Source: Alphaproteobacteria bacterium
Lineage (GTDB): Bacteria > Pseudomonadota > Alphaproteobacteria > RF32 > CAG-239
DNA length: 44,986 bases
Direction: 5' to 3'
NCBI GenBank assembly: GCA_017452885.1
Contig: JAFTLF010000121.1
Location: forward strand, 1 to 44,986
A model generated the notes under the pieces. That model had not been told where the DNA came from, searched no databases, and saw only the letters and a program-made list of their open reading frames with translations. Below are positions 4,243 through 42,709 of this stretch, in pieces (position 1 is the first letter of the stretch; each line of letters starts with the position of its first letter). The position numbers were made by a program, and so were the translations under genes.

Positions 4243-4372
4243 CGCAAAACCTGAAAAATTTGATATGTTGTAACTAAAATTTTACTTCTATAAGGCTAAC
4301 ATATTCCATAAACTGAAGATGTGAAACTGCAAATTGGATTTTATGCCAAGAAATTTGGAATATATAAACAAA

Positions 4373-5119
4373 ATGAATCAACGAGCCAAAAACAAAATTC
4401 GCTTGTATGTAGAAGCCGCATTGTGTCCCAACGCTGTTGTAGAGCTTAGTCCTGACGATTCTCATTATTTGTGTAATGTAATGCGATTGACGGAAGGACA
4501 CGTTTTGGGCTGTTTTAATTCTACGGGCGAATATGAGTGTAGTATCGTTGAGGCACACAAGAAACATTGTCGAATTAAAGTGATTGGCAAAGTACGCGAA
4601 GCTCATGCTGTGCCGGATATTTGGTTATTGTTTGCCCCCCTAAAAAAAGATAAAACTGATTTTGTAATAGAAAAAGCCACAGAGCTTGGAGTTCGCACCA
4701 TTGTTCCCATAATTACCCGCAACACAATGTCAGATAAGCCGCGTATAGAGCGCTTTATTGCTCAAGCCAAAGAAGCATCAGAACAATGTGAGCGTACAGA
4801 TATTCCGCATATTGTTAAAGCAGAAACATTAGAAAAGATTTTATCGTCTTGGCCGGAAGAAAGGATTTTGTTTTTTATGGATGAAAGCTTGCAAGGAGCT
4901 GATTGTGTAAGCGTATTTAGTGATTTTTCCAAAAAAGCCGCTGCGATTTTGGTTGGTCCTGAAGGAGGTTTTACATCAGAAGAAAAAAAACTTTTAGACA
5001 GCTTGCCTTTTGTTCGTGGAATAAATTTAGGGCCAAGAATTTTACGAGCCGAAACGGCAGCTTGTGCGGCATTGGCGGTTTGGCAAGCGGTTGTCGGAGA
5101 TTGGATAAGAGGAGAATAA
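4373..5119 (+). CDS. rsmE: 16S rRNA (uracil1498-N3)-methyltransferase RsmE
   Basis: KIRLYVE...HYLCNVMRL N-terminal PUA-like region, then the C-terminal SPOUT knot ILVGPEGGFTSEE...LGPRILRAETAA. The start is uncertain: ATG 4373 is chosen, with ATG 4343 or TTG 4334 as alternatives. Confidence 0.88.
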   Translation: MNQRAKNKIRLYVEAALCPNAVVELSPDDSHYLCNVMRLTEGHVLGCFNSTGEYECSIVEAHKKHCRIKVIGKVREAHAVPDIWLLFAPLKKDKTDFVIEKATELGVRTIVPIITRNTMSDKPRIERFIAQAKEASEQCERTDIPHIVKAETLEKILSSWPEERILFFMDESLQGADCVSVFSDFSKKAAAILVGPEGGFTSEEKKLLDSLPFVRGINLGPRILRAETAACAALAVWQAVVGDWIRGE

Positions 5120-7826: not shown

Positions 7827-7921
7827 GTTTAATAACTTTCAAAAAGTCATAGCTAATCGATTCTAATATTTGTAGTATATTCTTTATAAACATTAAAACA
7901 ACCTTTTTATCGGAGGTTTCC

Positions 7922-8224
7922 ATGCGTATTGTTTTGCTATCTCTTGTTTTTTCAATGATGTATCCGTTTTTTGCATCGGCTCAATATGCTGCTCAAAATG
8001 ATGCAAAATATATTGCTACGCTAAAAGCGGTGGTAAACTATAAAATAGAAGATGAAGAAAATCTTAGTGCTGTAGAACATTTGCGTGAAGATCAGCGATT
8101 TAATAGGCAGCTGTTACGCATGCTTGATAAATTACAAAACACCCGCACCAAAAATTCAACCAACAAAAGAATATACGATATTTTGTTGCGAGCCGGAAAA
8201 GAAGTATATAACGAGTTGAAATAA
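7922..8224 (+). CDS. Small secreted hypothetical protein (100 aa)
   Basis: Signal peptide MRIVLLSLVFSMMYPFFASA|Q followed by a charged helical region. No family recognised. Confidence 0.6.
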   Translation: MRIVLLSLVFSMMYPFFASAQYAAQNDAKYIATLKAVVNYKIEDEENLSAVEHLREDQRFNRQLLRMLDKLQNTRTKNSTNKRIYDILLRAGKEVYNELK

Positions 8225-8285
8225 TTAAGCATTGTTTAATAAAAAACTGCTATTCTAAGAACATAAAAGCAGAAAGGTTAATCCA

Positions 8286-8450
8286 ATGACATACGATTTC
8301 AAAGCCGCAACATTACGCATGACCAACCGTCGTTTGGAAATTATTCGCCAAAAAGAAGGTAAAGAGGTTGAGGGGCTTACCCCAATTAATACCACAAAAA
8401 ATATTTCTGTTTCAGCGCGTAAAGTTAAAAGTCAGGAGAAAACCGAATGA
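8286..8450 (+). CDS. Unlisted small ORF (54 aa, basic), possibly coupled to the downstream lipoprotein gene
   Basis: Read by hand: [60 protein letters not shown] lies ~10 nt upstream of the ATG. Its TGA overlaps the next ATG (ATGA at 8447-8450). It is below the ORF-track length cutoff. Confidence 0.35.
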   Translation: MTYDFKAATLRMTNRRLEIIRQKEGKEVEGLTPINTTKNISVSARKVKSQEKTE

Positions 8451-8740
8451 AAAAAATGCTTTGCCTTGTGTTTTTGCTAAATGCTTGCGCTTGGGTTGAA
8501 AATTTATATTGGGAAGAGCCGGATTATAATCGTCTTGCGGCTCATATGAGTGTCGTTGATAAGTCACCGCGTTTTGTAACTTACGAATATCGCGATATTG
8601 GTGTTGATGAAGTTGCGCCGATTGCTGCGTTGTATTGTCAAGAGCGAGGCAATTTGCAAGCTGCATTATATGAAATTACAATGCACCGCAACAATGCTCG
8701 TCGAGCAACATTTGTATGCAAAAAAACTGATGAAATTTAA
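8447..8740 (+). CDS. Small putative lipoprotein (97 aa)
   Basis: [14 protein letters not shown] has a lipobox-like LNAC. The rest is hydrophilic with two further Cys. The opposite-strand ORF 8412..8666 has poorer composition. Confidence 0.6.
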
Positions 8741-8817
8741 GCTTGCTAAAACTTGCAAAGCCGGACAATTCTTCCTATATAGCAATACAGATAAAGAATT
8801 TTGCAAAAGGGTTTGAT

Positions 8818-9726
8818 ATGAACAAAAACCTATATCATATTTTAGGAATAAGCAAAACGGCAAGCGAAACTGAAATAAAATCAGCATACCGTAAATTGGC
8901 TCGTAAATACCATCCGGATCTTAATAAAGATAACAAAGATGCCGCCGAAAAGTTTAAAGAAATTTCTTGTGCTTATGATATTTTGGGTGATAAAGAAAAG
9001 CGCAAAAAATACGATAATAACGAAATTGACAGTGATGGCAAGCCGACAGGTTATGGTGCAAGTGGTGGTTATCAACAATATGGTTCCGGCAATCCTTTCG
9101 GCAGTAGAAGTTTTAACGGTGGTGATTTTGATTTTTCCTCAATTTTCGGTAGTGATATTTTTTCACAATTTACCGGTGGACGAGGTAATGACTTTTCCGG
9201 TTTTGGTGGAGCATCAAGACGACCGCGCAAGGGTGATGATATTAACTATACTATGCGCGTGGATTTTATTGCCGCAACGCGTGGAGAAGAAAAAACTGTC
9301 AATATTAACGGCAAAAACATTAATGTGAAAATTCCTGCAGGAACATTGTCAGGGCAGACGCTTCGCCTCAAAGGGTTGGGAAATCCCAGTCCTAATGGAG
9401 GCAGTGCCGGCGATGTATTGATTACTTTAACCGTTGATAAACATCCGTATTTTTCGCTTGAAGGCAACAATATTGTTCTTGATTTGCCGATTAGTATCAA
9501 AGAAGCAATTTTAGGAGCCAAAATAACTATTCCGACAATTAATGGAAAAGTTGCCGTCAATATTCCGCCTTATGCCTCAAGTGGTGAGAAGCTTCGCCTT
9601 AAAGGAAAAGGAATAAAGAACGGAGATCAAATTATAAATCTTAAAATTATTGCTCCCAAAACAGCCAATCCGGAGTTGGAAAAGGCTTTGCATCAGCTAC
9701 CTGATGAAAATATAAGGAAATTTTGA
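8818..9726 (+). CDS. cbpA: J-domain co-chaperone, class II (CbpA-like; no zinc-finger domain)
   Basis: J-domain [35 protein letters not shown], a G/F-rich linker ([17 protein letters not shown]...FSGFGG) and DnaJ C-terminal beta domains ([24 protein letters not shown]). No CxxCxGxG repeats. The start is set at ATG 8818 rather than the track start 8743. Confidence 0.9.
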
Positions 9727-20733: not shown

Positions 20734-20810
20734 GGGTGTGTAGCTCAGGTGGTTAGAGCGCTACGTTGACATCGTAGAGGTCGCAAGTTCGAGTCTTGCC
20801 ACTCCCACCA
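20734..20810 (+). tRNA. tRNA-Val (anticodon GAC), CCA encoded
   Basis: Cloverleaf folded by hand: acceptor GGGTGTG/CACTCCC, D-arm GCTC..GAGC, anticodon stem CTACG/CGTAG with loop TTGACAT, T-arm GCAAG-TTCGAGT-CTTGC, 3' ACCA. Confidence 0.93.
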
Positions 20811-22635: not shown

Positions 22636-22712
22636 GCCGGCGTAGCTCATCAGGATAGAGCAACAGTTTCCTAAACTGTGGGTAGGAGGTTCGAGTCCTC
22701 TCGCTGGCGCCA
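22636..22712 (+). tRNA. tRNA-Arg (anticodon CCT), CCA encoded
   Basis: Acceptor GCCGGCG/CGCTGGC (one G-U), D-arm GCTC..GAGC, anticodon stem ACAGT/ACTGT with loop TTCCTAA, T-arm GGAGG-TTCGAGT-CCTCT, 3' GCCA. Confidence 0.93.
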
Positions 22713-24479: not shown

Positions 24480-24570
24480 GGATAGATGGCCGAGTGGTCG
24501 AAGGCGCACGATTGGAAATCGTGTGTACCCCTAAAGGGTACCGTGGGTTCGAATCCCACTCTATCCGCCA
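24480..24570 (+). tRNA. tRNA-Ser (anticodon GGA), long variable arm, CCA encoded
   Basis: Acceptor GGATAGA/TCTATCC, anticodon stem CACGA/TCGTG with loop TTGGAAA, variable arm GTACCCCTAAAGGGTAC, T-arm GTGGG-TTCGAAT-CCCAC, 3' GCCA. Confidence 0.93.
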
Positions 24571-28598: not shown

Positions 28599-29987
28599 CT
28601 AATATCCAGCTTTGATTTTTTCAATTAATTCCTTAACTGACGGAACGCCATTGCGGTACAAGGGATCCGTTGCAAAGCGATAAACCTGATGACCGGCAAA
28701 CAGCAAATTATCCATAATGCTACCGTTATGACTTACATCATACAATGTTTTATGAATGCAATAAGAGCGTGGATCAGGAAGTCTGCCGCTTGAGCCGTTT
28801 GCTTGTGACCATGAAGAAAACTGGCACTGTGACAAACAACCGACGCAATTTTTACGATCTTCTTTCATCTGAATCCACTCATTCGGAGTAAGAAAGACAA
28901 CCGTATTATCCGGCGTTTCTTTAATTTCTGTAGATCCTTTTTCAATTTGAGATTTGGCTTTTCCGCTGTCTTCTGGCTTAATATAAACTACTTTGGTTTC
29001 ACTTATTTTCAAAATATCGGAAAATTCTTCATTTTTTTCTCGTGAAAAAGCAATTTCACCGTCTTTACGCTCAATCAATCGTTCCAAAAAAGTATTTTTG
29101 ATAGCTGATGAAAAAAATCCGGTAGGGCTGAATTTCTGAAGAATAACATCGCCCTTTTTCAGCTGAAGCATCAGTTTTTTCCACGCATCACTGATAGGAC
29201 TTTCTTTAGTAATCATCGGGCGTGTACCGAACTGAAAAGCAATTTTACCAATATCCGGATTATCAATATAATCTTCCCAGTCATTAAGTGACCACACACC
29301 ACCGGCCAAAATAATCGGCTTTTCGGATAGACCGAGTTCATTCATTGTTTTGCGCAATTCAACCAAACGCATATAAGGTGTTTGAGGTTCATTGGGATTC
29401 TCTGCATTAGACAAACCGTTATGCCCGCCGGCCAACCACGGGTCTTCATAAACAACACCGCCCAAAAATTCAACAAAATTTTTGTATGCGCGTTTCCAAA
29501 GCACCTGAAAAGCTCGTGCAGAAGATACGATTGGGTAATAATATGTGCTGAAACGAGATGCTATCTCTCCAAGATTATAGGGCAATCCTGCACCACATGT
29601 TACACCATGAATTAAACCTTTTGCCTGCTCCAAAACACTGGTTAAAATTCTTTGTGACCCAGCAAGTTCCCACAACATATTCATATGAATGCGACCTTGA
29701 CCGTCAGAAACCTCATGAGCTATTTTTGCTTGTGCTAAACATCCTTTGATAGATTGCTCGACCATTTCTTCATGGCGAGATTTACGATCTTTGCTAAAAT
29801 ATCTTTCAAAAAGGACAGTTCCTTTTTCATCATAATAGTCCGGACTGACACCAGAAAATGTTCCAACACAATTTTCGTGAGCCCACGCTCCGGAGGATCG
29901 TCCATCACTGGCATTAATACCTTTACCACCTTCAATCAGTGGCAAAACTTCTCTTCCGGATATTAAAATCGGATTTAATGTTTTCAA
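28599..29987 (-). CDS. Nitronate monooxygenase / NAD(P)H-dependent flavin oxidoreductase family protein (long form)
   Basis: PLIEGGKGINAS, VTCGAGLPYN and PIILAGGVWSL...FQFGTRPMITKESP suggest a TIM-barrel FMN-binding layout. There is a C-terminal Cys-rich extension CVGCLSQC. Confidence 0.75.
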   Translation of the reverse strand: MKTLNPILISGREVLPLIEGGKGINASDGRSSGAWAHENCVGTFSGVSPDYYDEKGTVLFERYFSKDRKSRHEEMVEQSIKGCLAQAKIAHEVSDGQGRIHMNMLWELAGSQRILTSVLEQAKGLIHGVTCGAGLPYNLGEIASRFSTYYYPIVSSARAFQVLWKRAYKNFVEFLGGVVYEDPWLAGGHNGLSNAENPNEPQTPYMRLVELRKTMNELGLSEKPIILAGGVWSLNDWEDYIDNPDIGKIAFQFGTRPMITKESPISDAWKKLMLQLKKGDVILQKFSPTGFFSSAIKNTFLERLIERKDGEIAFSREKNEEFSDILKISETKVVYIKPEDSGKAKSQIEKGSTEIKETPDNTVVFLTPNEWIQMKEDRKNCVGCLSQCQFSSWSQANGSSGRLPDPRSYCIHKTLYDVSHNGSIMDNLLFAGHQVYRFATDPLYRNGVPSVKELIEKIKAGY

Positions 29988-30057: not shown

Positions 30058-31512
30058 TTATAATGCTAAATCAAGGATGTTCTTCGGAATATCATTCACC
30101 GATACCAGAGCGACAATTATGCAAATAAGAGCATATACTTGCAACATATTGGTAATTTCTTTGTTTTGCAGCAACGGAAAAATGTTTCCGTATTTGTGTA
30201 TAAAACGATTGACACCCAACATAATTAGTGTAACCGCAATAGCTTGCAATCCCAATCCTATCGTATTGAGCCATTTTTTTAACGGCAAGATAATTGGATA
30301 CAAAAAGCTGAAAAACAGCATATAAACAGCCAAAATGCCATAAGAAATTTTTTGCATTTTATGGCTAAAGGCTTGCTTTTCCGCTTTATCTTTTTTGATT
30401 TTTTCATCAGATAAATCAGCAATTTCGATTCCGCGAATTGTTTCAGGTGTTTGTTTTTGTTTTTTTATATTGCGTATTTCTTGATAAAATTTATCTTCTG
30501 TCATACACAATCCGCACCCCTTATTGGTAAAATAAACATGGTTAGGATTGTTTTTGCATTGTCGCAAGCTATGCATTAATGTCCATAAATGTTCTTGCCA
30601 TTCATAGGCGGTTGGGCGCTCTCCTCCTTTGGCAAAAGCACGTTCAAACATCTCCAACGTGGTTTTATCAAAATATTCATGCAGGGTGTAAGGGTGTGGA
30701 GCCTGATATTTATCCGGCCACAGACCATAGGCATAATGATAAGCTTCAATACGATTTTGTATGGTCAGCATTTCTTCGTCATTTTTGCGAGGAGTGCCGG
30801 AAAATGGATGTATTCCATTATTCAGTAGCTTAAAGATGATTACAGCCAATGCAAATTTATCCTGTTCTTCTCCCATTTCCTCGCAAGACAAGTTCATTCC
30901 TTCCGGATAAATATATTCTTCAGTTACAAACTCTGCCGGATAGCGAGCGCGCTCTCCTTTGATTGAAAAACCATCGCAATCAACCATTGCAACCAACATA
31001 TTTGATTTATATACAGACACATTTGACGGCTTCAAGTCCACAATATAATGTCCGCATTTGTGCAATGCCGTTACCATGGATGCAACATTATAAGCAGCAA
31101 AAATCCGATAAGCATATTTATCAGATAGTCCGAGTTTTTTGCGAATTGCTTTTTGCATAAGATGATCAAGCGAAACCGCTTCGCTCATATTTATAAGCGG
31201 CATCATATATCCGACACAAAATCCTTTTTCATCTTCCAAAATCGCTTCTGGCCAAGCAATTTGTGTATATTGCACACCATCGGTTTCCACCGGAGCAAAA
31301 TTGGGTTTATTAAGTAACATTGCCTCAAGTTTTTGCCTATTGGTGCGGCTTTTATCGGTATTGTGAAAAATTTTTGCTACTAATTCGGGGCGATTTTTTA
31401 CACTAAAAATTCGACCTGATGCCCCGCCGCGATTAAGAAGCTTATCAAGAGTAACTTTTCCGAAAGAACCGTCGGCATAGACGGCATTATAAATTGAGCT
31501 GTCATTTGTCAT
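30058..31512 (-). CDS. Ser/Thr protein kinase-like protein with C-terminal Cys cluster and three TM helices (YegI / TerY-P triad kinase type)
   Basis: GGASGRIF (Gly-loop-like), VAKIFH (VAIK Lys), GHYIVDLKPSNV (catalytic loop), VDCDGF (DFG equivalent), QDKFALAVIIFKLL. Then CKNNPNHVYFTNKGCGLC and the TM spans ISYGILAVYMLFFSFLYPIILPL, IGLGLQAIAVTLIMLGV, MLQVYALICIIVALVSV. ATG 31510-31512 overlaps the upstream TGA (ATGA). Confidence 0.8.
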   Translation of the reverse strand: MTNDSSIYNAVYADGSFGKVTLDKLLNRGGASGRIFSVKNRPELVAKIFHNTDKSRTNRQKLEAMLLNKPNFAPVETDGVQYTQIAWPEAILEDEKGFCVGYMMPLINMSEAVSLDHLMQKAIRKKLGLSDKYAYRIFAAYNVASMVTALHKCGHYIVDLKPSNVSVYKSNMLVAMVDCDGFSIKGERARYPAEFVTEEYIYPEGMNLSCEEMGEEQDKFALAVIIFKLLNNGIHPFSGTPRKNDEEMLTIQNRIEAYHYAYGLWPDKYQAPHPYTLHEYFDKTTLEMFERAFAKGGERPTAYEWQEHLWTLMHSLRQCKNNPNHVYFTNKGCGLCMTEDKFYQEIRNIKKQKQTPETIRGIEIADLSDEKIKKDKAEKQAFSHKMQKISYGILAVYMLFFSFLYPIILPLKKWLNTIGLGLQAIAVTLIMLGVNRFIHKYGNIFPLLQNKEITNMLQVYALICIIVALVSVNDIPKNILDLAL

Positions 31513-32261
31513 TTTGCCAACCTTATCCATACTAAAGTTTTGTCATCCGAATTAATCCGCTGAGCTTTGGGCATATCCAGAGTATTGTTAAGCGCTCGCA
31601 AAGCTTTTTGTTTGTTTTTTTCATTGATAAGATATGTATTAATCGGAGAAGTAAAGCCTTTTTCAATTTTCATAAAGTCCGGACTAAACGAAAAATTACT
31701 TACTCCGTCACTCATCAAAAAGACACTTTTGGCATTTTCAAAATTTAAGAAACGCAGATTTTCCAACCAAGCTTGTTGAGTGTAAAAAAATGTTTCGCAG
31801 GCAAATAACCCATTTTCGGGACGAGAAGCAATAAATTGCTCATGTTCATCATCCAAAAAAGCGATTCCGGCACCATCTCCGATATGGAAGAACAGTCCTT
31901 TTCCTTTATAATATACCATTCCGATAATTGTTGCGCTAAAATCCGCCAATCCTTGTTCGTTTTTAAATTTATTAAAGCGGTGGCGACATAATTTTTCGCG
32001 ACTGATACGTACGGCATGAATAACAGCATCTCGTATTTTGTTCCACGGCGCATTTTTCAAAAGGTCACACAGAGTTTCGCAAGCCGTTTTGGCACCGATT
32101 TTGCTGAATTTGGCGGATCCTGCGCCGTCAGAAACCACGGCCACAAAATTTTTGCCTTGCGCATGTTTGAAATAATCCTGACACGGTATATTATTACGAC
32201 GGTGCAAAACACCGCGTACGCTGGTTGCTACAATGCGTATGTTTGAACAACAACTATTCAT
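31509..32261 (-). CDS. PP2C-family Ser/Thr phosphatase-like protein
   Basis: SVRGVLHRRNNIPCQDYF, FVAVVSDGAGSAKFS, FHIGDGAGIAF and VFLMSDGVSNF are PP2C-like metal-binding Asp/Gly motifs. ATG 32259-32261 is preferred; the track start 32282 is a TTG. Confidence 0.8.
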   Translation of the reverse strand: MNSCCSNIRIVATSVRGVLHRRNNIPCQDYFKHAQGKNFVAVVSDGAGSAKFSKIGAKTACETLCDLLKNAPWNKIRDAVIHAVRISREKLCRHRFNKFKNEQGLADFSATIIGMVYYKGKGLFFHIGDGAGIAFLDDEHEQFIASRPENGLFACETFFYTQQAWLENLRFLNFENAKSVFLMSDGVSNFSFSPDFMKIEKGFTSPINTYLINEKNKQKALRALNNTLDMPKAQRINSDDKTLVWIRLAK

Positions 32262-32934
32262 CCCATTCGCCGGTATCTTCAATCAAATCGGGAGCATTTG
32301 GCGCTGCGCGAGAAACACAAGAAACACTGCGGCTTAACCACAGGAAAAATTCTGTAAACTTTAAGCCAGTCAAACGTTTGGGCGTGATTGTCGAAAACTT
32401 AGCCAATTTATCAAGATTAGCTCCTTGAGTGCCGACGGCGTGAATAACTACTTTTTTGTTATTTTGTGCCGCAATACATTTTTTGGCAACAATTTCCCAG
32501 TCATAGTCAGTAGGTTCGCCGTCACTGATAAGGAATATCCATGGCCGCTTAGAGGTAATTCCGCAACTGTCATAAAGACATTTTTGCTCTTCAATTTTTT
32601 TCAGGGCAAGTTCCATTGCTTTGCCCAAAGGTGTCAAACCGGAAGCTTCCATGGTGGGAGCTTCAAAATTCATCGCGTCTACCCAATCCGAAGATATTAC
32701 GGCTTCATCTTTGCCAAACGCTTTAATAATCAACAGTTGTACACGTGAGCTTGCATCAATATCTTCTTTCAGCTCTTGTTCCAAGGCTTTAAGTCCGGCA
32801 TTGAGTTGTTTAATAGGCTCTCCGCGCATTGAGCCGGAACAGTCCAACACTAACACACAAGGTGTACGTTCATTGGCATTATCTGCAAATTCCACATAGG
32901 GAATTAAATCATTTTCAATATCGCTTACAGCCAT
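32254..32934 (-). CDS. Cytoplasmic von Willebrand factor A domain protein with intact MIDAS (TerY/YegL-like)
   Basis: PCVLVLDCSGSMRG (D-x-S-x-S), SGLTPLG (Thr) and FLISDGEPTD (Asp). There is no signal peptide. AAGGA lies 8-9 nt upstream of the ATG. Confidence 0.85.
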   Translation of the reverse strand: MAVSDIENDLIPYVEFADNANERTPCVLVLDCSGSMRGEPIKQLNAGLKALEQELKEDIDASSRVQLLIIKAFGKDEAVISSDWVDAMNFEAPTMEASGLTPLGKAMELALKKIEEQKCLYDSCGITSKRPWIFLISDGEPTDYDWEIVAKKCIAAQNNKKVVIHAVGTQGANLDKLAKFSTITPKRLTGLKFTEFFLWLSRSVSCVSRAAPNAPDLIEDTGEWDE

Positions 32935-32951
32935 TATAACATCCTTTTTGT

Positions 32952-33074
32952 TTAGTATTTTGGATAGGTATGAGGATAACCACTTCCTTCAAAAGGTTCA
33001 GGAGCGGACATTTTGCCGCATGCGCTTAGAGTAACCGCAGATAATATCAAAAATATTAATAAACCTTTTTTCAT
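32952..33074 (-). CDS. Unlisted 40-aa lipoprotein ORF heading the vWA operon
   Basis: Hand translation: MKKGLLIFLILSAVTLSACGKMSAPEPFEGSGYPHTYPKY*. The lipobox is LSAC. AAGGA lies ~9 nt upstream. The stop is 17 nt before the vWA ATG. Confidence 0.45.
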   Translation of the reverse strand: MKKGLLIFLILSAVTLSACGKMSAPEPFEGSGYPHTYPKY

Positions 33075-33159
33075 ATACCATTCCTTTACCAGTTTGCACT
33101 ATACTACATCTTATAGCAGTTAAGGGTTAAGCAAAAATTAAGTTATACAGATAAAATCC

Positions 33160-33705
33160 ATGTTAAAAAAGACACTATTAATATTTTGTTGTTTGCTTTT
33201 CAGTTTCAATGCAGAGGCCAAGAAGGGTGTAAATATTTTTGCATATTCACGACCTGCGCCGGAAACCGCATTTTATAATAAATATGGACAACGAACAACC
33301 ATAAGCGACTTCAAGGGCGATTTTGTATTGTTAAATTTCTGGTCACGGCATTGCGTACCTTGTATTAAAGAATTGGATGACCTCAACAATTTTGTGCTAA
33401 AAACAAAAGATACCGGTATTCGTGTTTTAATTATCAGTAAAGATGACGAATGGGTTTCTGCCCGCGAGCAAAAGGAATTGCTTGAAAAATATCGCGCTCC
33501 TGATTTAGATTTTTACATTGATAAAGGCGGTAAACTCGCCGGCGATTTTGGTATTTTCGCTTCTCCGCATACGGTTCTGATAAACAAGTTTGGAGATGAA
33601 TTCGGACGTATCAGTGGTTCTGTGGATTGGGATGACGAAGATATTATCGAAAAAATTTATAGCATAAAAGTAAAATACGGAGAAGGATTACCGCATAATG
33701 ACTAA
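33160..33705 (+). CDS. Periplasmic thiol:disulfide oxidoreductase, TlpA/ResA/DsbE-like thioredoxin fold
   Basis: Signal peptide MLKKTLLIFCCLLFSFNAEA and the active site FWSRHCVPCIKE (CxxC). Confidence 0.85.
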   Translation: MLKKTLLIFCCLLFSFNAEAKKGVNIFAYSRPAPETAFYNKYGQRTTISDFKGDFVLLNFWSRHCVPCIKELDDLNNFVLKTKDTGIRVLIISKDDEWVSAREQKELLEKYRAPDLDFYIDKGGKLAGDFGIFASPHTVLINKFGDEFGRISGSVDWDDEDIIEKIYSIKVKYGEGLPHND

Positions 33706-35224: not shown

Positions 35225-35803
35225 TTAGTAGTAAATCCAAGTAATTGAGTTTGTTGCGGTTGGACCGGAACATTCGCTGTAAGCTTGAGGTAATGACACC
35301 GGTAAAGCTTTAGCGGCAGCGTCAGAAGATCCATCATGGCTTGCTGTAAAGCTGGGCGTATCAACTTTAGCTCCGCTGATATTAATGCCGACTAAACCAT
35401 CTGTACCCCAATCGGTACTAGCCAAGCTGGCGCAGGTATCCTTGCCTAATCCGTTGAATGTTATGGCAAAATTTGTATTATTTGCTCCACCGGCAGCAAC
35501 CACAACATCTCCGCCAAAGGCATTATGAAGCGTGGTGCCCGTAATCATGTCACTGGGAGCCAGATTATAATCTACGGCATTGGAGGCGCTTAATCCATCA
35601 TAAGACGGAGAAGTTGCATAAGCCGTACGAATATTCATAAGCAACATTGTCAATTGGTCTTGTGCTTTGGTCAACTTAAATTTTGCCATAGCTTTTGAAT
35701 AACCGGAAATACCGCCAACTGACAAAACACCGATAATTGCAAGCACACCAAGCATTTCGACCATGGAACGCCCGCTTTGTTCACTATTAAATATCTTTTT
35801 CAT
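35225..35803 (-). CDS. Type IV prepilin, paralog 2 (192 aa)
   Basis: Class III signal MKKIFNSEQSG|RSMVEMLGVLAIIGVLSVGG with Gly-1 and Glu+5. A C-terminal Cys pair (KDTCASL...YSECSG) fits a disulfide-bonded D-region. GGGAGAAAG SD. Confidence 0.82.
   Translation of the reverse strand: MKKIFNSEQSGRSMVEMLGVLAIIGVLSVGGISGYSKAMAKFKLTKAQDQLTMLLMNIRTAYATSPSYDGLSASNAVDYNLAPSDMITGTTLHNAFGGDVVVAAGGANNTNFAITFNGLGKDTCASLASTDWGTDGLVGINISGAKVDTPSFTASHDGSSDAAAKALPVSLPQAYSECSGPTATNSITWIYY
35507..35803 (-). repeat. Copy 1 of a ~300-bp direct repeat (5' halves of the two pilin genes)
   Basis: It matches 36206..36502 at a constant 699-bp offset. I see only 4 mismatches across roughly 35616..35790. The encoded first 99 aa differ at 6 positions. 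Confidence 0.85.
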
Positions 35804-35971: not shown

Positions 35972-36502
35972 TTAGTAATAAGTCCATGTAATTGTGTTGC
36001 TGGCAGTAGCCGCAGAACATCCGGAAAAAGCATCCGGCAAAGAAATTGGAAGCTTATCAACAGTATGAGAACCGGATGTCAAAGCAATACTAACCAAACC
36101 ATCTGTACCCCAGTCTGTGCTACCTAAGCTAGCGCAAGTTTCTTTACCTAAGCCTTCAAATTTGATTGAAAAGTTCAAATCATTATTGCTGGTTTCCAGA
36201 GTAACGCCACCACCAAAGGCATTATGAAGCGTGGTACCTGTAATCATATCGCTTGGAGCCAGATTATAACTTACGGCACTGGAAGCACTCAATCCCTTAT
36301 AAGACGGAGAAGTCGCATAAGCCGTACGAATATTCATAAGCAACATTGTCAATTGGTCTTGCGCTTTGGTCAACTTAAATTTTGCCATAGCTTTTGAATA
36401 ACCGGAAATACCGCCAACTGACAAAACACCGATAATTGCAAGCACACCAAGCATTTCGACCATCGAGCGTCCGCTTTGTTCACTATTGAAAAAATTCTTC
36501 AT
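35972..36502 (-). CDS. Type IV prepilin, paralog 1 (176 aa)
   Basis: MKNFFNSEQSG|RSMVEMLGVLAIIGVLSVGG, with a Cys pair (KETCASL...FSGCSA). The start is set at ATG 36500-36502 (GGAG 8 nt upstream) rather than the track start 36544. Confidence 0.82.
   Translation of the reverse strand: MKNFFNSEQSGRSMVEMLGVLAIIGVLSVGGISGYSKAMAKFKLTKAQDQLTMLLMNIRTAYATSPSYKGLSASSAVSYNLAPSDMITGTTLHNAFGGGVTLETSNNDLNFSIKFEGLGKETCASLGSTDWGTDGLVSIALTSGSHTVDKLPISLPDAFSGCSAATASNTITWTYY
36206..36502 (-). repeat. Copy 2 of the ~300-bp direct repeat (5' half of pilin paralog 1)
   Basis: See copy 1 (35507..35803). Confidence 0.85.
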
Positions 36503-36573
36503 TTTCAAACTCCAAAAAAATCGTTCTGTACGTAGTCTACACACAATAGATTAAAAAATTATGAATAATTGCT

Positions 36574-40086: not shown

Positions 40087-41442
40087 TTATCTGACCATCA
40101 TTGCAGATCCAACGCCGGGAATGCCGACACTGCTCACAAAATTAGAGCTTTCTTCTTGATCTTCCGCTTGTGCTGCCAAAGCATTGTTCAGAGAACTGGC
40201 CGGTTGCTCCAAAGGCAAAATTCCACCGGCAGCAAAGTACAGATAATCCTTCACACCACCTTTATCAGCACGCACATAGGTCGATGTAATTTCATCAATA
40301 GTATGCCCGCTTTGAAGAGCAGTTCCTTTCTTAACATAGAAAGATGTACCGTCCTGATTAACAAGCTTAGCAATCAACTCACCACCCTGTCCGCGAATTT
40401 CCATTACTGCGTACATATTCGGCAATTTTAACTCAGGCATGGGGGCAACTTGCGTTTCGGCACTTTGCTCGGTTTTCTCCGCTCCGCTATCGGCAGAGGC
40501 AACATCTTCAAACGGATTCTGTCTGCTAGCTTCCAGTTCTTTTTCTTGCGCGATAATTCTTGATTTCAAAACTCCGATTTGGGCATTCAAATCATCAACT
40601 CTTTGTTTGTGCTTACTGATAAGATTGGCTGCCTTGGTATTAGAAGCTGCAATATCATTTTTCAACTGCAAAAATTTGTCTTTGGAATCATCCAAAAGTT
40701 TTTGATTTTCTTTTTTTGTATCTTCAATTTGCTTATACAAGTCAGCATCATGAGCAATCCATTTTTGAACATCTTCCAAATATTTGTTCTTATAAGCATT
40801 CAAAATACGTTCTTGACGCAGTTTTTCAAACTCAATATCCAGTTCACGCAATTTTTGTTGCTCTTGCAGAACTTTCTGTTCTTGAGCTTTTTCCCATTCT
40901 ATTTTTTGTTTTTCTTGCGCTTCTTTCTTTTCTTGTTCTTGAATCAAGGCTTGTCGACGTTGATTTTTGATAGCCTCTATCTCATTTTTTATTTTTTCAC
41001 GGCGCAACTCCAGATTTAACAATGCGGTTTGTTTTTCTATATCAGACATTTGCGAAAACAAACCATCATCCATAGCCGGTTCGTCATCAATATCATTAAA
41101 TGCTGAAGCAACATTTGTTTTTGGAGCAACAAAAGAAGGTTCTTTTTCGGCGCTAACATTATCGGAAGTTGCCGGAACACCTGTTTTGGGGATGATTTTT
41201 TCGGGGGCGAAAATTTCATCGGTTGTTTCTGATTTTTTATTTGCCAAAACCGGAGCAGGAGCAGATTTACTGTCATCATCATCGTTAAACATGGCAAATT
41301 CATCAGGAATATCCTTGTTTATATCGTCATTAGCAGCTTCCTCACTCAAAGTCACCAAAGCCCGAGCATCAAAACTGATGCCGATACCCAATAACAATGC
41401 CAAAGCCGATACGGATAAAATATTTCTTATTTTATAAAACAT
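40087..41442 (-). CDS. PilP-like pilus assembly protein with a long charged coiled-coil insert (451 aa)
   Basis: The start is set at MFYKIRNIL (ATG 41440-41442, GAGGGGG 7 nt upstream). It has an N-terminal signal/anchor SVSALALLLGIGISF, an acidic region and an E/K/Q-rich coiled coil (QEQEKKEAQEKQKIEWEKAQEQKVLQEQQKLRELDIEFEKLRQE). The C-terminal beta domain is MYAVMEIRGQGGELIAKLVNQDGTSFYVKKGTALQSGHTIDEI. Confidence 0.55.
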   Translation of the reverse strand: MFYKIRNILSVSALALLLGIGISFDARALVTLSEEAANDDINKDIPDEFAMFNDDDDSKSAPAPVLANKKSETTDEIFAPEKIIPKTGVPATSDNVSAEKEPSFVAPKTNVASAFNDIDDEPAMDDGLFSQMSDIEKQTALLNLELRREKIKNEIEAIKNQRRQALIQEQEKKEAQEKQKIEWEKAQEQKVLQEQQKLRELDIEFEKLRQERILNAYKNKYLEDVQKWIAHDADLYKQIEDTKKENQKLLDDSKDKFLQLKNDIAASNTKAANLISKHKQRVDDLNAQIGVLKSRIIAQEKELEASRQNPFEDVASADSGAEKTEQSAETQVAPMPELKLPNMYAVMEIRGQGGELIAKLVNQDGTSFYVKKGTALQSGHTIDEITSTYVRADKGGVKDYLYFAAGGILPLEQPASSLNNALAAQAEDQEESSNFVSSVGIPGVGSAMMVR

Positions 41443-42709
41443 AGATAGCCCCCTCATAATGCCATGTTTTGTCAACCGGAGAATATGTTATCATATTAAT
41501 CTGAAGTCCTGAATATTTTGTTAACATCTCATTCCAAGTTGCCGGATTATAATCTGATGTAAATGAAAATTTTATCTTGCGATAAATTTTTCCGGTTGCG
41601 CTGGTTTCTACTTCCACGGCTTGAGATATTTTAAGCCCCAGAGCTTGAAATTCATCATTTAATTGGTTTTGCAAATCCATCATATTTTTTTCCGGTGGAG
41701 ATGCAATCATTTCCCCGGTGGAAATCGGCAAAGTAGCAGATAATGTTTCGCCATCGCCAGAAAAAGAAAATCCCGAAAATGGCAATTCTGATTCTTCCAT
41801 GGCTTTTTTTGCCCAAGACAACCGTCCGATACTGCGTCGCCAAGATGTTGCCACACTTCCTTGAGCGCATGCAATCATACCAATATCCCATCCCGGCGGC
41901 ATAATTTTAACCAAATCCATGGCCTTTTTATAGCATTCTATCATCACGGTTTTCGGATTAGTCATTTGTTCCCATGGTTTTGCCTCAACAACCGGAGCTG
42001 CTGTCTGAACGATTTTGGGCTTTACCGGCACCACCACCGGAGCCACCGTCGGTGTTAAAAACAGACGATCAATCAAACTTGAAACCAACCACAACCCGAC
42101 TACGGCAGAAATTCCAATAACTAAAAACAGCTTAGCGCCACGCAAGCCTTTAATTTTTTGCAGTTTAGACTTTGCGCCGCGAGCCAAAATTTCACCGAGA
42201 TCCATTTCCTCGGTATCTTCAATTTCCCACTCCTTAGGGGCAATTTTTTTGCCCCAGTCCGGCACGGCCAGCATTGATGTAAACTGACTTTTTGCTTCTT
42301 CTTCGCTAAGAAACAGCATATCGCCGTCAGACAAGATAATGTCATTACGAATACAAGTATACCACCAACCTTCGGTCGTTTTAAATACAGCTACATAAGA
42401 AGAAACATTAGACAACGCGGTTGCAAGTGCCACAGCACCAACCGTTTCTCCACTGTGATAACCTTCGTGAGATACACAAATACCAAACTGTGGAGCCTTA
42501 CCGCTCTTGATGCAGAAAAGGTCAGCACCTTCAAGCACACCGGCAGAAGCCTCTTCAACTTCTTGGAAAGGATCACTGGAATTTTGCAGCGGTTGCCAAA
42601 ACAAGCTGGTTGCATAAACGGTTCCATCTACATTAATAGACGTTCCCCACGACCGCTTGCCGGAATCGCTGTCATAATCCTCATCTAACAATTTGGCTTC
42701 TTCAAGCAC
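41432..42709 (-). CDS. PilO-like type IVb pilus accessory protein (R64/PAPI-1 PilO family, putative)
   Basis: At 425 aa it is of similar size to my recollection of R64 PilO. The N-terminal VYATSLFWQPL motif resembles the family's GLFWQ signature. There is a central TM helix LFLVIGISAVVGLWLVSSLI. The GTG start has AAGGGAG upstream. The gene lies between the secretin and PilP-like genes. Confidence 0.55.
   Translation of the reverse strand: MLEEAKLLDEDYDSDSGKRSWGTSINVDGTVYATSLFWQPLQNSSDPFQEVEEASAGVLEGADLFCIKSGKAPQFGICVSHEGYHSGETVGAVALATALSNVSSYVAVFKTTEGWWYTCIRNDIILSDGDMLFLSEEEAKSQFTSMLAVPDWGKKIAPKEWEIEDTEEMDLGEILARGAKSKLQKIKGLRGAKLFLVIGISAVVGLWLVSSLIDRLFLTPTVAPVVVPVKPKIVQTAAPVVEAKPWEQMTNPKTVMIECYKKAMDLVKIMPPGWDIGMIACAQGSVATSWRRSIGRLSWAKKAMEESELPFSGFSFSGDGETLSATLPISTGEMIASPPEKNMMDLQNQLNDEFQALGLKISQAVEVETSATGKIYRKIKFSFTSDYNPATWNEMLTKYSGLQINMITYSPVDKTWHYEGAIYVL

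What the first reader, a model, noticed from the sequence alone, without database searches (positions are those of the whole stretch)
30058..33074. Tightly coupled lipoprotein / vWA-MIDAS / PP2C phosphatase / membrane kinase operon (TerY-P-type triad of unknown function)
Seen in the sequence: four minus-strand genes with almost no spacing. A 40-aa lipobox ORF is followed 17 nt later by a signal-less vWA protein with an intact MIDAS (DCSGS, T, SDGEPTD). An 8-nt overlap leads into a PP2C-like protein. An ATGA overlap then leads into a kinase-like protein that ends in three TM helices. Established knowledge: this vWA + PP2C + Ser/Thr kinase architecture is the 'TerY-P triad' proposed from comparative genomics. 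It corresponds to E. coli yegL / pphC(yegK) / yegI, where kinase and phosphatase activities were shown in vitro but no physiological role or substrate is known. Inference: the module is a self-contained phospho-switch. The MIDAS protein is the likely substrate or scaffold, and the membrane-embedded kinase tail is the likely input. The extra leader lipoprotein is not something I recall being noted for this triad. The module sits only ~1.2 kb from a type IVb pilus cluster, so an envelope, pilus or phage-stress link is conceivable.
Basis: partly seen in the sequence, partly recalled or inferred. Interest (0 to 1): 0.75.

Follow-up and report, generated by a model that had tools for sequence, protein, structure and literature searches.

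The report
Kinase–phosphatase–vWA operon with mini-lipoprotein
This is a gut-bacterial version of a known three-gene phosphorylation switch (E. coli yegL–pphC–yegI type, "TerY-P triad") that is inherited vertically, has lost the kinase's DNA-binding tail, and has gained a strictly co-occurring 22-residue lipoprotein, which suggests it senses the cell envelope.

Summary
Four tightly packed minus-strand genes encode a 40-aa lipoprotein, a signal-less vWA/MIDAS protein, a PP2C phosphatase and a Hanks-type kinase with a Zn ribbon and three C-terminal TM helices. The last three are homologues of E. coli YegL (42% identity), PphC and YegI, so the TerY-P reading holds.

New findings:
1. The module lies in the same chromosomal place in at least 80 species-level genomes of uncultured gut and rumen Alphaproteobacteria. 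Its divergence tracks that of flanking housekeeping genes. The vWA is the most conserved gene of the neighbourhood (88% mean identity).
2. The mini-lipoprotein is a real gene (mature CGKxSxPxPxxxSGYPHxYP, pN/pS 0.27). In 74 of 75 testable metagenome loci it lies directly upstream of the vWA. It is absent from ten distant triads.
3. Compared with YegI, the kinase keeps the TM hairpin but replaces the roughly 210-aa HhH tail with a third TM and a short tail.
4. A TlpA-like redoxin is adjacent in 74 of 74 loci. Linkage to the pilus cluster is only partial.

Best reading: a domesticated envelope-to-cytoplasm Ser/Thr switch, not a mobile defence cassette. It is a new variant of a known kind, and the mechanism is inferred.

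The parts
33075..33159 (.). Compact divergent intergenic region between the lipoprotein operon (minus strand) and the TlpA-like gene (plus strand). It presumably holds both promoters.
   Evidence: It is 85 nt in the window and 63-119 nt (median 85) in 75 related loci. The RBS AAGGAA lies before the lipoprotein ATG. The consensus promoter scan was not above shuffles.
32952..33074 (-). 40-aa prolipoprotein: signal peptide, lipobox LSAC, and a 22-aa mature peptide CGKMSAPEPFEGSGYPHTYPKY.
   Evidence: The motif C-G-K-x-[SA]-x-P-x-P-x-x-x-S-G-Y-P-H-x-Y-P occurs in 77 of 81 clade sequences. Invariant residues use all synonymous codons, with pS 0.74 and pN 0.20. It lies 81-122 nt (Cys codon to vWA start) upstream of the vWA in 74 of 75 testable metagenome loci. 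No curated family matches beyond the signal peptide.
32254..32934 (-). Cytoplasmic YegL/TerY-like vWA protein with an intact MIDAS and a conserved C-terminal Ser cluster (S201, S203, S208).
   Evidence: Pfam VWA. 42% identity to YegL. The AF2 model has pLDDT 80 and its top Foldseek hits are vWA domains. MIDAS residues D31, S33, S35, T101, D138 and serines S201, S203, S208 are invariant in the clade and in 8 distant triads. Mean pairwise identity is 0.88, the highest in the neighbourhood.
31509..32261 (-). PP2C-type Ser/Thr phosphatase (PphC-like), translationally coupled to the vWA by an 8-nt overlap.
   Evidence: Pfam PP2C_2 1.7e-36. PphC match E 2e-11. The metal-binding Asp motifs D29, D45-G46, D129-G130, D185-G186 and D239-D240 are invariant in the clade and in outgroups. 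The overlap is seen.
30583..31512 (-). Kinase gene, N-terminal part: cytoplasmic Hanks-type kinase domain (about aa 1-310), joined to the PP2C gene by an ATGA overlap.
   Evidence: Pfam Pkinase. YegI match E 6e-30. Foldseek top hit is PknB. The P-loop G29-G33, K47, D159/K161/N164 (DLKPSN) and D178/D180 are invariant in 41 homologues.
30505..30558 (-). Post-kinase CHCC zinc-ribbon-like motif (C319, H325, C333, C336).
   Evidence: It is invariant in the clade. It is present at the same position in YegI and in 7 distant triad kinases.
30058..30336 (-). Membrane tail: TM hairpin (aa 393-411 and 416-434), 18-aa loop, TM3 (453-471), 13-aa C-terminal tail and stop codon.
   Evidence: Hydropathy and AF2 helices agree. 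The hairpin coincides with the YegI TMs at 393-411 and 417-435. TM3 and the C-tail are the best conserved membrane parts, at 0.73 and 0.64 against 0.31-0.60 for the rest.
33160..33705 (+). Divergently transcribed TlpA/ResA-like periplasmic thiol:disulfide oxidoreductase (signal peptide, CVPC). It is an invariant neighbour and a possible fifth component.
   Evidence: Pfam AhpC-TSA/Redoxin. NCBIfam TlpA 9.6e-19 and ResA 5e-17, both below cut-off. It is adjacent in 74 of 74 loci that have enough upstream sequence.

Best explanation
The locus is a chromosomal, vertically inherited member of the YegL-PphC-YegI branch of TerY-P triads. It has been remodelled into a four-gene operon that probably signals from the envelope.

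Shown by sequence and structure:
- an apparently active Hanks-type kinase with a CHCC zinc ribbon, anchored in the inner membrane;
- a PP2C phosphatase with all metal-binding aspartates;
- a cytoplasmic vWA with an intact MIDAS;
- a lipoprotein of which only 22 residues remain after processing.

Shown for the E. coli homologues: YegI autophosphorylates and PphC dephosphorylates it.

Inferred mechanism:
1. The kinase domain is cytoplasmic. The TM1-TM2 hairpin returns the chain to the cytoplasm, as in YegI. The clade-specific TM3 puts the conserved 13-residue C-tail in the periplasm.
2. There the lipid-anchored peptide (SGYPHxYP motif) acts as ligand or co-sensor and changes the kinase's oligomeric state and autophosphorylation.
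3. The active kinase phosphorylates itself and most likely the conserved Ser cluster (S201, S203, S208) at the end of the vWA.
4. The vWA uses its MIDAS to bind an acidic or phosphorylated partner and carries the output. Its extreme conservation suggests a conserved cellular partner.
5. PP2C resets the switch.

The loss of the HhH DNA-binding tail and the gain of TM3 plus the lipoprotein shift the input from DNA-linked to envelope-linked.
For: Identity:
- Pfam, BLASTP and fold evidence for all three enzymes.
- Catalytic and MIDAS residues are invariant.

Operon:
- 17-nt gap, 8-nt overlap and ATGA overlap.
- Spacing is conserved in relatives.

Vertical, core-like inheritance:
- At least 114 species-level genomes encode the kinase. 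The 80 fetched share the order TlpA | lipo-vWA-PP2C-kinase.
- Kinase divergence correlates with the flanking NMO-like and PilT-like genes (rho 0.82 and 0.80).
- GC content does not stand out from the flanks.
- vWA mean identity is 0.88.

Lipoprotein as a dedicated partner:
- It is under purifying selection.
- In 74 of 75 testable loci it is followed by the vWA.
- It is absent from ten distant triads.

Remodelled tail:
- Outgroup kinases are 630-680 aa with an HhH, Zn-finger or WD40 C-terminus.
- The window kinase ends after TM3, and TM3 plus the C-tail are the best conserved membrane parts.

Precedents:
- A vWA protein (ArnB) is phosphorylated at its C-terminus by a Hanks-type kinase (PMC6509490). 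ArnB is among the top fold matches of the vWA model.
Against: - No experiment or transcript data exist for this clade, which is known only from MAGs.
- Topology rests on hydropathy and a medium-confidence model (pLDDT 69.7). The TM1-TM2 loop carries two lysines (KKW).
- Contact between the lipoprotein and the kinase tail is untested. The periplasmic surface of the kinase would be only about 17 residues.
- One divergent homologue of the lipoprotein (L105) lies next to an HU gene and a tRNA, with no vWA within about 100 nt. The peptide may therefore have a triad-independent role.
- The invariant TlpA neighbour could be the lipoprotein's real partner.
- Phosphorylation of the vWA has not been shown even in E. 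coli.
- Whether the module is 'core' for the whole order could not be measured, because no genome-wide presence/absence data were available.
Confidence: 0.5

Rival explanations
1. It is an anti-phage defence system of the TerY-P type. The kinase senses infection, for example phage attachment or injection at the envelope, and the triad triggers abortive infection or blocks the phage.
For: - A TerY-P triad was reported to protect against T7-like phages (Gao et al. 2020 as summarised in PMC7699616 and PMC11090510).
- Distant YegL-type triads sit on plasmids beside AbiEii, HipA, SOS-peptidase and GIY-YIG genes.
- The kinase weakly matches the PD-T4-6 defence kinases (about 1e-5).
- A type IVb pilus, a common phage receptor, is often nearby.
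Against: - The locus is in a fixed chromosomal position with housekeeping flanks in all 80 genomes and co-diverges with them. Defence cassettes are usually patchy and mobile.
- The vWA is under unusually strong purifying selection.
- No effector-like domain remains. The validated system has an OB fold and YegI has HhH, whereas here the kinase simply ends after TM3.
- PADLOC gives only a weak TerY hit at 0.043 and nothing for the PP2C. That negative is weak, because PADLOC also misses E. coli YegL/PphC/YegI.
- The single hit in the phage collection is a mis-filed bacterial contig.
Confidence: 0.15
2. The mini-lipoprotein is functionally independent of the triad. It would be an envelope-biogenesis or redox helper that works with the adjacent TlpA-like oxidoreductase, or an LptM-like factor, and merely shares a promoter region and transcript with the vWA operon.
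For: - TlpA is adjacent in 74 of 74 loci across a 63-119-nt divergent region.
- Both products are periplasmic.
- The best, sub-threshold NCBIfam hit is LptM, in 12 of 25 members, best E 2.3e-5.
- A divergent homologue (L105) occurs without a vWA immediately downstream.
Against: - For the window's lipoprotein, where the matched residues were reported, the LptM match covers only the signal peptide and CG (residues 1-20) and is below cut-off. Other lipoprotein families score similarly.
- The gene is co-directional with the vWA and 3-31 nt from it (a 1-nt overlap in one locus). It points away from TlpA.
- The mature peptide has no Cys other than the lipidated one, so it is not a thiol-exchange substrate.
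- Gain of the lipoprotein coincides with the clade-specific TM3 and C-tail of the kinase.
Confidence: 0.15
3. The module is a regulator of the neighbouring type IVb pilus, working like the archaeal Arn network. There a vWA protein (ArnB) phosphorylated by Hanks-type kinases controls expression of a type-IV-pilus-like machine. This is a specific output for the best explanation rather than an exclusive alternative.
For: - In the window the module lies 1.2 kb from a PilT-like ATPase, two tandem pilins, PilB/PilC-like genes and PilO.
- A pilus ATPase is within the flanks in 28 of 39 well-covered loci, on either side of the module.
- There is an ArnB fold match and a literature precedent.
Against: - In 11 of 39 well-covered loci no pilus gene lies within about 4.5-8 kb. 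Linkage is weaker than for TlpA (100%) or the NMO-like gene (56 of 71).
- No FHA partner (ArnA equivalent) was seen next to the module.
- E. coli yegLKI is not next to pilus genes.
Confidence: 0.12
4. It is a metal- or tellurite-type stress sensor, as originally proposed for TerY-P triads. The MIDAS protein, and perhaps the His/Tyr-rich lipopeptide, would sense a metal (for example Cu, given the TlpA neighbour) and switch the kinase/phosphatase pair.
For: - The vWA is about 33% identical to the plasmid ter-operon TerY proteins.
- Anantharaman et al. 2012 proposed a metal-sensing switch (quoted in PMC11090510).
- The mature lipopeptide has an invariant His and two Tyr.
- The neighbouring redoxin's best NCBIfam match is TlpA, a thiol:disulfide interchange protein.
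Against: - No other ter genes (terZABCDE) are present in the window, where the neighbours are housekeeping and pilus genes.
- A single His in 22 residues is a poor metal site.
- MIDAS sites normally hold Mg/Mn as a structural cofactor for ligand binding rather than sensing metal levels.
Confidence: 0.08

Closest known systems
E. coli YegL - PphC (YegK) - YegI
   Same: - Same three proteins in the same order: vWA, then PP2C, then kinase.
- vWA is 42% identical over the full length. The PP2C_2 phosphatase and the kinase share the post-kinase CHCC motif.
- The TM hairpin is at the same residues (393-435).
- The biochemistry is known: YegI autophosphorylates on Ser and is a two-pass inner-membrane protein, and PphC is Mn-dependent and dephosphorylates YegI.
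   Different: - YegI is 648 aa with a roughly 210-aa cytoplasmic C-terminal region containing an HhH motif. The window kinase is 484 aa and ends with a third TM plus 13 residues.
- E. coli has no lipoprotein upstream. Instead ibsA/sibA lie there.
- There is no TlpA neighbour in E. coli.
- The window kinase has a more canonical catalytic loop (DLKPSN against DVNQNS in YegI).
- In E. coli no condition was found in which the operon is robustly expressed. Here it is a strongly conserved chromosomal operon.
TerY-P triad (Anantharaman et al. 2012), including the copies embedded in CoCoNuT systems
   Same: It combines a TerY-like vWA, a PP2C and a Ser/Thr kinase with a C-terminal zinc ribbon, and was proposed to be a phosphorylation switch (PMC11090510).
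   Different: Those triads are associated with DNA/RNA restriction and processing systems and with mobile elements. This one has housekeeping neighbours, a membrane tail and an added lipoprotein.
TerY-P anti-phage system (Gao et al. 2020; PADLOC TerY-P)
   Same: It has the same three domain types and was reported to be active against T7-like phages (PMC7699616).
   Different: - The kinase of the validated system carries a C-terminal OB fold. Here there is none.
- PADLOC gives only a weak TerY hit (0.043) for the vWA and nothing for the PP2C. It equally misses E. coli YegLKI.
- The distribution here is vertical, not patchy.
Sulfolobus ArnB (vWA) / ArnC, ArnD (kinases) / PP2A archaellum regulatory network
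   Same: A MIDAS-containing vWA protein is a direct substrate of Hanks-type kinases at its C-terminus. A Ser/Thr phosphatase counteracts them, and the output controls a type-IV-pilus-like machine (PMC6509490). ArnB (8s05) is among the top fold matches of the vWA model.
   Different: - There is no detectable sequence relationship beyond the vWA fold (19-20% identity in the structural alignment).
- ArnB has extra beta-sandwich and helix-bundle domains and works with the FHA protein ArnA.
- The phosphatase is PP2A, not PP2C.
- It is a functional analogy only.
Small lipoproteins and peptides that feed envelope signals to membrane kinases (RcsF to IgaA/Rcs, NlpE to CpxA, MgrB/SafA to PhoQ), recalled from general knowledge
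   Same: The concept is the same: a short envelope-anchored polypeptide acts as co-sensor for a membrane kinase that has little periplasmic domain of its own.
   Different: Those systems use histidine kinases and unrelated sequences. No such partner is known to me for a bacterial Hanks-type kinase of the YegI family. None of these families matched the lipoprotein except one stray SafA hit at E 0.055 in 1 of 25 members.

Membership tests
TerY-P triad (vWA + PP2C + Ser/Thr kinase; Anantharaman 2012) | TerY/YegL-like vWA protein with an intact MIDAS | tested here: met
   Pfam VWA 7.7e-6. About 33% identity to plasmid TerY proteins and 42% to YegL. DxSxS, T and D are invariant. The fold is confirmed.
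TerY-P triad (vWA + PP2C + Ser/Thr kinase; Anantharaman 2012) | PP2C-family phosphatase encoded next to the vWA | tested here: met
   PP2C_2 1.7e-36. 8-nt overlap with the vWA gene. The metal-binding Asp residues are conserved.
TerY-P triad (vWA + PP2C + Ser/Thr kinase; Anantharaman 2012) | Hanks-type Ser/Thr kinase with a C-terminal zinc ribbon as the third gene | tested here: met
   Pkinase 2.6e-11. PknB-like fold. The CHCC motif at 319-336 is invariant and shared with 8 distant triad kinases.
YegL-PphC-YegI branch (E. coli type) | Full-length similarity of all three proteins to the E. coli proteins, in the same gene order | tested here: met
   BLASTP E-values 3e-49, 2e-11 and 6e-30. Gene order vWA, PP2C, kinase.
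YegL-PphC-YegI branch (E. coli type) | Two-pass TM hairpin after the zinc ribbon | tested here: met
   Hydropathy peaks at 393-411 and 416-434, against 393-411 and 417-435 in YegI. The model has helices there. Topology itself was not tested.
YegL-PphC-YegI branch (E. coli type) | Long cytoplasmic C-terminal region with an HhH (DNA-binding) motif after the TM hairpin | tested here: not met
   The window kinase ends at residue 484, after a third TM. HHH_5 is found in YegI and in the Sphingomonas and Mesorhizobium homologues, but there is no such hit here.
YegL-PphC-YegI branch (E. coli type) | Kinase autophosphorylation and its reversal by the PP2C | not testable with these tools
   Only sequence-level support is available: the catalytic residues are intact. 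The activities were shown for the E. coli proteins.
TerY-P anti-phage defence system (Gao 2020 / PADLOC) | Match to the defence-system profile HMMs | tested here: not met
   The PADLOC TerY hit is only E 0.043. There is no hit for the PP2C, and the kinase hits PD-T4-6 and MkoA instead. The same negative is seen for E. coli YegLKI, so the models cover a different branch.
TerY-P anti-phage defence system (Gao 2020 / PADLOC) | Kinase fused to a C-terminal OB fold | tested here: not met
   The C-terminus consists of three TM helices. The OB-fold criterion comes from PMC11090510.
TerY-P anti-phage defence system (Gao 2020 / PADLOC) | Patchy, island-like or mobile genomic distribution | tested here: not met
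   Synteny is fixed in 80 genomes, and the module co-diverges with its flanks.
TerY-P anti-phage defence system (Gao 2020 / PADLOC) | Protection against phage | not testable with these tools
   This needs a phage challenge in a heterologous host.
LptM (YifL) small lipoprotein | Match above the NCBIfam cut-off that includes the mature-peptide motif | tested here: not met
   The best score is 20.2 bits against a cut-off of 27.7, and only residues 1-20 (signal peptide plus CG) align. Other lipoprotein families score similarly. There is no Pfam family hit.

The most novel reading that the evidence does not exclude
A TerY-P triad, elsewhere a mobile module linked to DNA processing or defence, has been domesticated in a whole lineage of gut Alphaproteobacteria into a housekeeping trans-envelope signalling device. 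A 22-residue lipid-anchored peptide (SGYPHxYP) would be the dedicated periplasmic ligand or co-sensor of a Hanks-type kinase whose only periplasmic element is a newly acquired TM3 plus a 13-residue tail. The ultra-conserved MIDAS protein would be the phospho-regulated output adaptor, possibly controlling the type IVb pilus in the manner of ArnB. This would be the first lipopeptide co-sensor described for a bacterial eukaryote-like kinase. It would also give a physiological handle on the orphan YegLKI family.
Probability: 0.3. Interest if true: 0.6.

Novelty: new variant of a known kind. Interest (0 to 1): 0.42.

Why it matters
The YegL-PphC-YegI / TerY-P triad is widespread: the kinase alone has 5344 50%-identity cluster representatives at E <= 1e-10. 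Yet it has no established physiological role outside one phage-defence report. In E. coli no condition was found in which the operon is robustly expressed.

This clade offers a natural experiment. Here the triad is fixed, under strong purifying selection, stripped of its DNA-binding tail and coupled to a tiny lipoprotein and a periplasmic redoxin. That points to an envelope input and a conserved cytoplasmic partner of the vWA, and it gives concrete, testable residues: GYPHxYP, the kinase C-tail, and vWA S201/S203/S208 and the MIDAS.

It is also a clear example of how a conflict or mobile module can be domesticated into core signalling. The limits are that the hosts are uncultured and that every mechanistic step beyond domain identity is inferred.

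Tried and rejected
1. A protein search with the 40-aa lipoprotein returned only 8 close relatives, too few to define its range. I replaced it with a degenerate DNA pattern scan of metagenomes.
2. The vWA and kinase searches of the 90%-clustered database were saturated by the clade itself. Outgroups therefore came from plasmid tblastn and from the 50%-representative search plus contig look-ups.
3. LptM identity for the lipoprotein was rejected. The hits are sub-threshold and cover only the signal peptide.
4. Phage origin was rejected. The single hit in the phage collection (MT836238.1, 'UNVERIFIED') has the full bacterial synteny.
5. The consensus promoter and terminator scans were not above shuffles, and no clear terminator follows the kinase. 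The operon boundaries therefore rest on spacing and conservation only. The NMO-like gene 70 nt downstream could be co-transcribed, but it is adjacent in only 56 of 71 loci.
6. Rfam found nothing but three distant tRNAs.
7. A PDB sequence search with the vWA found nothing, so fold search was used instead.
8. I did not attempt residue co-variation between the lipopeptide and the kinase tail. With about 70 closely related species, phylogenetic confounding would dominate.
9. No complex prediction was possible, because the structure tool takes single chains of window or database sequences only.

Full report
**1. Observation**

The four minus-strand ORFs exist as described.
- Lipoprotein, 32952-33074: 40 aa, MKKGLLIFLILSAVTLSAC|GKMSAPEPFEGSGYPHTYPKY.
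- vWA, 32254-32934: 226 aa.
- PP2C, 31509-32261: 250 aa from the ATG at 32261.
- Kinase, 30058-31512: 484 aa.

The junctions are a 17-nt spacer with an AAGGA ribosome-binding site, an ATGAATAG (8-nt) overlap and an ATGA overlap. Pfam gives VWA (7.7e-6), PP2C_2 (1.7e-36) and Pkinase (2.6e-11).

AlphaFold2 models support the folds. The kinase model has pLDDT 69.7 and its top Foldseek hit is PknB at 1.7e-8. The vWA model has pLDDT 80 and its top hits are CMG2/ANTXR vWA domains at 5e-10. Hydropathy and the model agree on three TM helices at 393-411, 416-434 and 453-471.

**2. Identity**

Against E. coli K-12:
- The vWA is 42% identical to YegL over the full length (E 3e-49).
- The PP2C matches PphC (24%, E 2e-11).
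- The kinase matches YegI over residues 20-341 (27%, E 6e-30).

The kinase match runs through a C-x5-H-x7-C-x2-C motif. That motif is invariant in the clade (C319, H325, C333, C336) and is present in YegI and in seven other distant triad kinases.

Catalytic signatures are intact and invariant.
- Kinase: P-loop G29-G33, K47, D159-L-K-P-S-N164, D178/D180.
- PP2C: D29, D45-G, D129-G, D185-G, D239-D240.
- vWA MIDAS: D31-x-S33-x-S35, T101, D138.

So this is a YegL-PphC-YegI-type TerY-P triad.

The literature held here gives the following.
- YegI is an active Ser/Thr kinase and a two-pass inner-membrane protein with both termini in the cytoplasm.
- PphC is a Mn-dependent PP2C that dephosphorylates YegI.
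- No condition was found in which the E. coli genes are robustly expressed (bioRxiv 10.1101/819920 and 10.1101/303594, PMC13232886).
- TerY-P triads were defined by comparative genomics as a putative metal-sensing phospho-switch. A variant with an OB-fold kinase was reported to defend against T7-like phages (PMC11090510, PMC7699616).

**3. Where it occurs**

The scan of one genome per species found 114 relatives of the kinase. All 80 that were fetched are uncultured gut or rumen Alphaproteobacteria MAGs (CAG:495, Candidatus Scatocola and others). In every locus with enough sequence, the order is TlpA-like gene (divergent) | lipoprotein - vWA - PP2C - kinase.

Linkage to the neighbours, counted in loci with enough flanking sequence:

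| Neighbour | Adjacent in |
|---|---|
| TlpA-like redoxin | 74 of 74 |
| NMO-like gene | 56 of 71 |
| gpt | 48 of 73 |
| PilT-like pilus ATPase (within flanks, loci with at least 4.5 kb on both sides) | 28 of 39 |

Identity of the kinase to the window's copy correlates with that of the flanking NMO-like and PilT-like genes (Spearman rho 0.82 and 0.80). GC content does not stand out from the flanks.

Mean pairwise identity across 66 species (fewer for the flanking genes):

| Gene | Mean pairwise identity |
|---|---|
| vWA | 0.88 |
| NMO-like | 0.80 |
| PilT-like | 0.73 |
| kinase | 0.68 |
| PP2C | 0.60 |
| lipoprotein (whole precursor) | 0.52 |
| TlpA | 0.51 |

The module is therefore inherited vertically and is under strong constraint, the vWA most of all. 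This is unlike a typical mobile defence cassette.

**4. The lipoprotein**

Seventy-seven of 81 clade sequences contain C-G-K-x-[S/A]-x-P-x-P-x-x-x-S-G-Y-P-H-x-Y-P, usually followed by two basic residues and a stop. The signal peptide is variable. Invariant residues are encoded by all synonymous codons: Gly2 and Gly14 by four codons each, Pro16 and Pro20 by four each. Over this block pS is 0.74 and pN is 0.20. This is protein-level purifying selection, so the gene is real.

An independent DNA pattern scan of metagenomes (TGY GGN AAR - N30 - GGN TAY CCN CAY NNN TAY CC) gave 106 matching stretches, of which the 80 returned as loci were analysed. In 74 of the 75 loci with enough downstream sequence, the vWA starts 81-122 nt after the Cys codon. 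The one exception is an out-of-frame chance match.

One short contig, L105, carries a divergent homologue (…CGKRSAPEQLEPNGYPHVYPAPTAG…). It lies after an HU gene and a tRNA, with no vWA start in the roughly 100 nt before the contig ends. The peptide family may therefore exist outside the triad.

No curated family explains the peptide. NCBIfam LptM hits are sub-threshold. For the window's lipoprotein, the one member whose matched residues were reported, the hit is 20.2 against 27.7 bits and covers only residues 1-20. Other lipoprotein families score alike, and Pfam finds nothing.

**5. Comparison with triads elsewhere**

I examined eight YegL-type triads: E. coli plus plasmid-borne copies in Sphingomonas, Mesorhizobium, Cupriavidus, Pseudomonas, Azospirillum, Methylocystis and Trichormus, with vWA proteins 40-45% identical to the window's. 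All have vWA-PP2C-kinase. Their kinases are 632-682 aa and carry HhH, topoisomerase Zn-finger or WD40 C-termini. Many lie next to AbiEii, HipA, SOS-peptidase, Y-family polymerase or GIY-YIG genes. None has a lipobox ORF within 500 nt upstream of the vWA.

The two nearest non-clade kinases with usable context are P0253 (45% identity) and P0273 (37%), both from organisms with 63% GC. They likewise have vWA-PP2C-kinase and no lipoprotein.

Among the 150 best 50%-identity representatives, similarity to the window kinase stops at about residue 345 for almost all, and the tails vary. By a simple hydropathy rule, 105 have one TM after the Zn ribbon, 13 have two, 21 have none and about 10 have three or more. 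A membrane anchor is therefore the family norm. What is clade-specific is the short tail that ends after TM3.

The first two TMs coincide with the YegI hairpin (393-411 and 417-435). After it, YegI continues with about 210 cytoplasmic residues, whereas the window kinase has an 18-residue loop, TM3 and 13 residues. Within the membrane region, TM3 (0.73) and the C-tail (0.64) are the best conserved parts. TM1 scores 0.60, TM2 0.54 and the loops 0.31-0.48.

**6. Mechanism**

Shown:
- domain identities and intact active sites;
- tight translational coupling;
- strict co-occurrence of the four genes plus TlpA;
- vertical inheritance;
- loss of HhH and gain of TM3.

Known for homologues: kinase autophosphorylation and reversal by PP2C.

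Inferred:
- The kinase domain must be cytoplasmic, and the hairpin returns the chain to the cytoplasm as in YegI. TM3 therefore exposes the conserved C-tail to the periplasm.
- The lipid-anchored 22-mer is the only other periplasmic product of the operon. It appeared in the same lineage as TM3, so it is the best candidate for a ligand or co-sensor.
- The vWA carries a Ser cluster (S201, S203, S208). These serines are invariant in the clade and in all eight distant triads. They sit at the end of the last helix, where the model becomes disordered. This is the best candidate phospho-acceptor.
- A precedent exists in Sulfolobus ArnB, a MIDAS vWA protein phosphorylated at its C-terminus by the Hanks-type kinase ArnC to control the archaellum (PMC6509490). 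ArnB is among the top fold matches of the model.
- The very high conservation of the vWA suggests that it docks through its MIDAS onto a conserved cellular partner, which would be the output.

**7. Rivals**

- *Phage defence (confidence 0.15).* It is supported by the published TerY-P result and by the mobile contexts of distant triads. It is weakened by fixed synteny, co-divergence with the flanks, the lack of any effector-like domain and the lack of PADLOC support. The PADLOC negative is weak, because the models also miss E. coli YegLKI.
- *Lipoprotein belongs with TlpA or envelope biogenesis (0.15).* It is supported by the 100% TlpA adjacency and by L105. It is weakened by the gene's orientation, by the spacing of 31 nt or less to the vWA, and by the lack of any Cys other than the lipidated one.
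- *Arn-like pilus regulator (0.12).* This is a possible output. Linkage to the pilus cluster is only partial.
- *Metal sensing (0.08).* No ter genes are present and the metal site would be poor.

**8. Novelty and score**

The triad is known, and the E. coli homologues have been characterised biochemically. What I did not find described:
- a conserved, dedicated mini-lipoprotein as the first gene of the operon;
- the HhH-less, three-TM kinase;
- fixed, vertically inherited status with an invariant TlpA neighbour in a gut alphaproteobacterial lineage.

I rate it a new variant of a known kind, with interest 0.42. It gives a concrete envelope-sensing hypothesis for an orphan signalling family. However, the hosts are uncultured and every step beyond domain identity is inferred.

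Noticed in passing
window 35225-35803 (-) and 35972-36544 (-): Two tandem type IVb pilin paralogues (Pfam PilS/Bundlin). Their first 60 residues are identical apart from residues 3-4. Overall identity is 72%, and the C-terminal part is divergent with indels. They could be antigenic or functional pilin variants.
   Followed up: partly
L105 (Ga0209958_1043687), mini-lipoprotein ORF on the minus strand, about 254-102: A divergent homologue of the mini-lipoprotein (MNIKTSLIFLLFSALLASCGKRSAPEQLEPNGYPHVYPAPTAGTINAQGQ) lies after an HU gene and a tRNA. No vWA start occurs in the roughly 100 nt before the contig ends. The peptide family may therefore occur outside the triad context.
   Followed up: partly
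L195 = GenBank MT836238.1 (1-11670): This record is filed as 'UNVERIFIED: Bacteriophage sp.' from human faeces. It carries PilT-like ATPase - TlpA - lipoprotein - vWA - PP2C - kinase - NMO-like gene in the same order as the bacterial MAGs. It is most likely a bacterial contig mis-filed as phage.
   Followed up: yes
window 33160-33705 (+) and intergenic 33075-33159: A TlpA/ResA-like periplasmic thiol:disulfide oxidoreductase is transcribed divergently from the lipoprotein across only 85 nt. It is adjacent in 74 of 74 related loci, a stronger linkage than for any other neighbour. A partly conserved ATAACTTAATTTTT(A/G)CTTAACCCTT stretch is seen in the closer relatives.
   Followed up: partly
window 32254-32934 (-), residues 199-208 of the vWA: The W-L-S-x-S-x-x-x-x-S cluster (W199, L200, S201, S203, S208) is invariant in the clade and in eight distant YegL-type vWA proteins. 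It sits at the end of the last helix, just before a disordered tail, and is a candidate phospho-acceptor site.
   Followed up: partly
window 28599-29987 (-): A 462-aa gene lies 70 nt downstream of the kinase. It has only a weak Pfam NMO hit (5.6e-7) and no NCBIfam family, yet mean identity in the clade is 80%. No clear terminator separates it from the kinase, so it could be co-transcribed in this genome.
   Followed up: partly
window 40087-41475 (-): A 462-aa ORF inside the type IVb pilus cluster, between the PilB-like ATPase and the PilO-like gene, has no Pfam hit.
   Followed up: no
L001 (E. coli K-12), L085 (Pseudomonas fulva plasmid): PADLOC v2 profiles do not recognise E. coli YegL or PphC, nor a plasmid YegL-type triad. 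Only the kinases give weak PD-T4-6 hits. Defence-finder style annotation is therefore blind to this whole branch of TerY-P-like triads.
   Followed up: yes
L084 (Cupriavidus plasmid) 7851-9621; L001 (E. coli) 3675-5027: Distant YegL-type triads are followed by chaperone-type genes. In Cupriavidus there is a J-domain protein plus a hypothetical gene, and in E. coli the Hsp70-family yegD. No such gene accompanies the triad in the window's clade.
   Followed up: no
window 20734-20810, 22636-22712, 24480-24570 (+): Three tRNA genes (Val-GAC, Arg-CCT, Ser-GGA) lie 5-10 kb from the module. Nothing seen there suggests an integration site.
   Followed up: no
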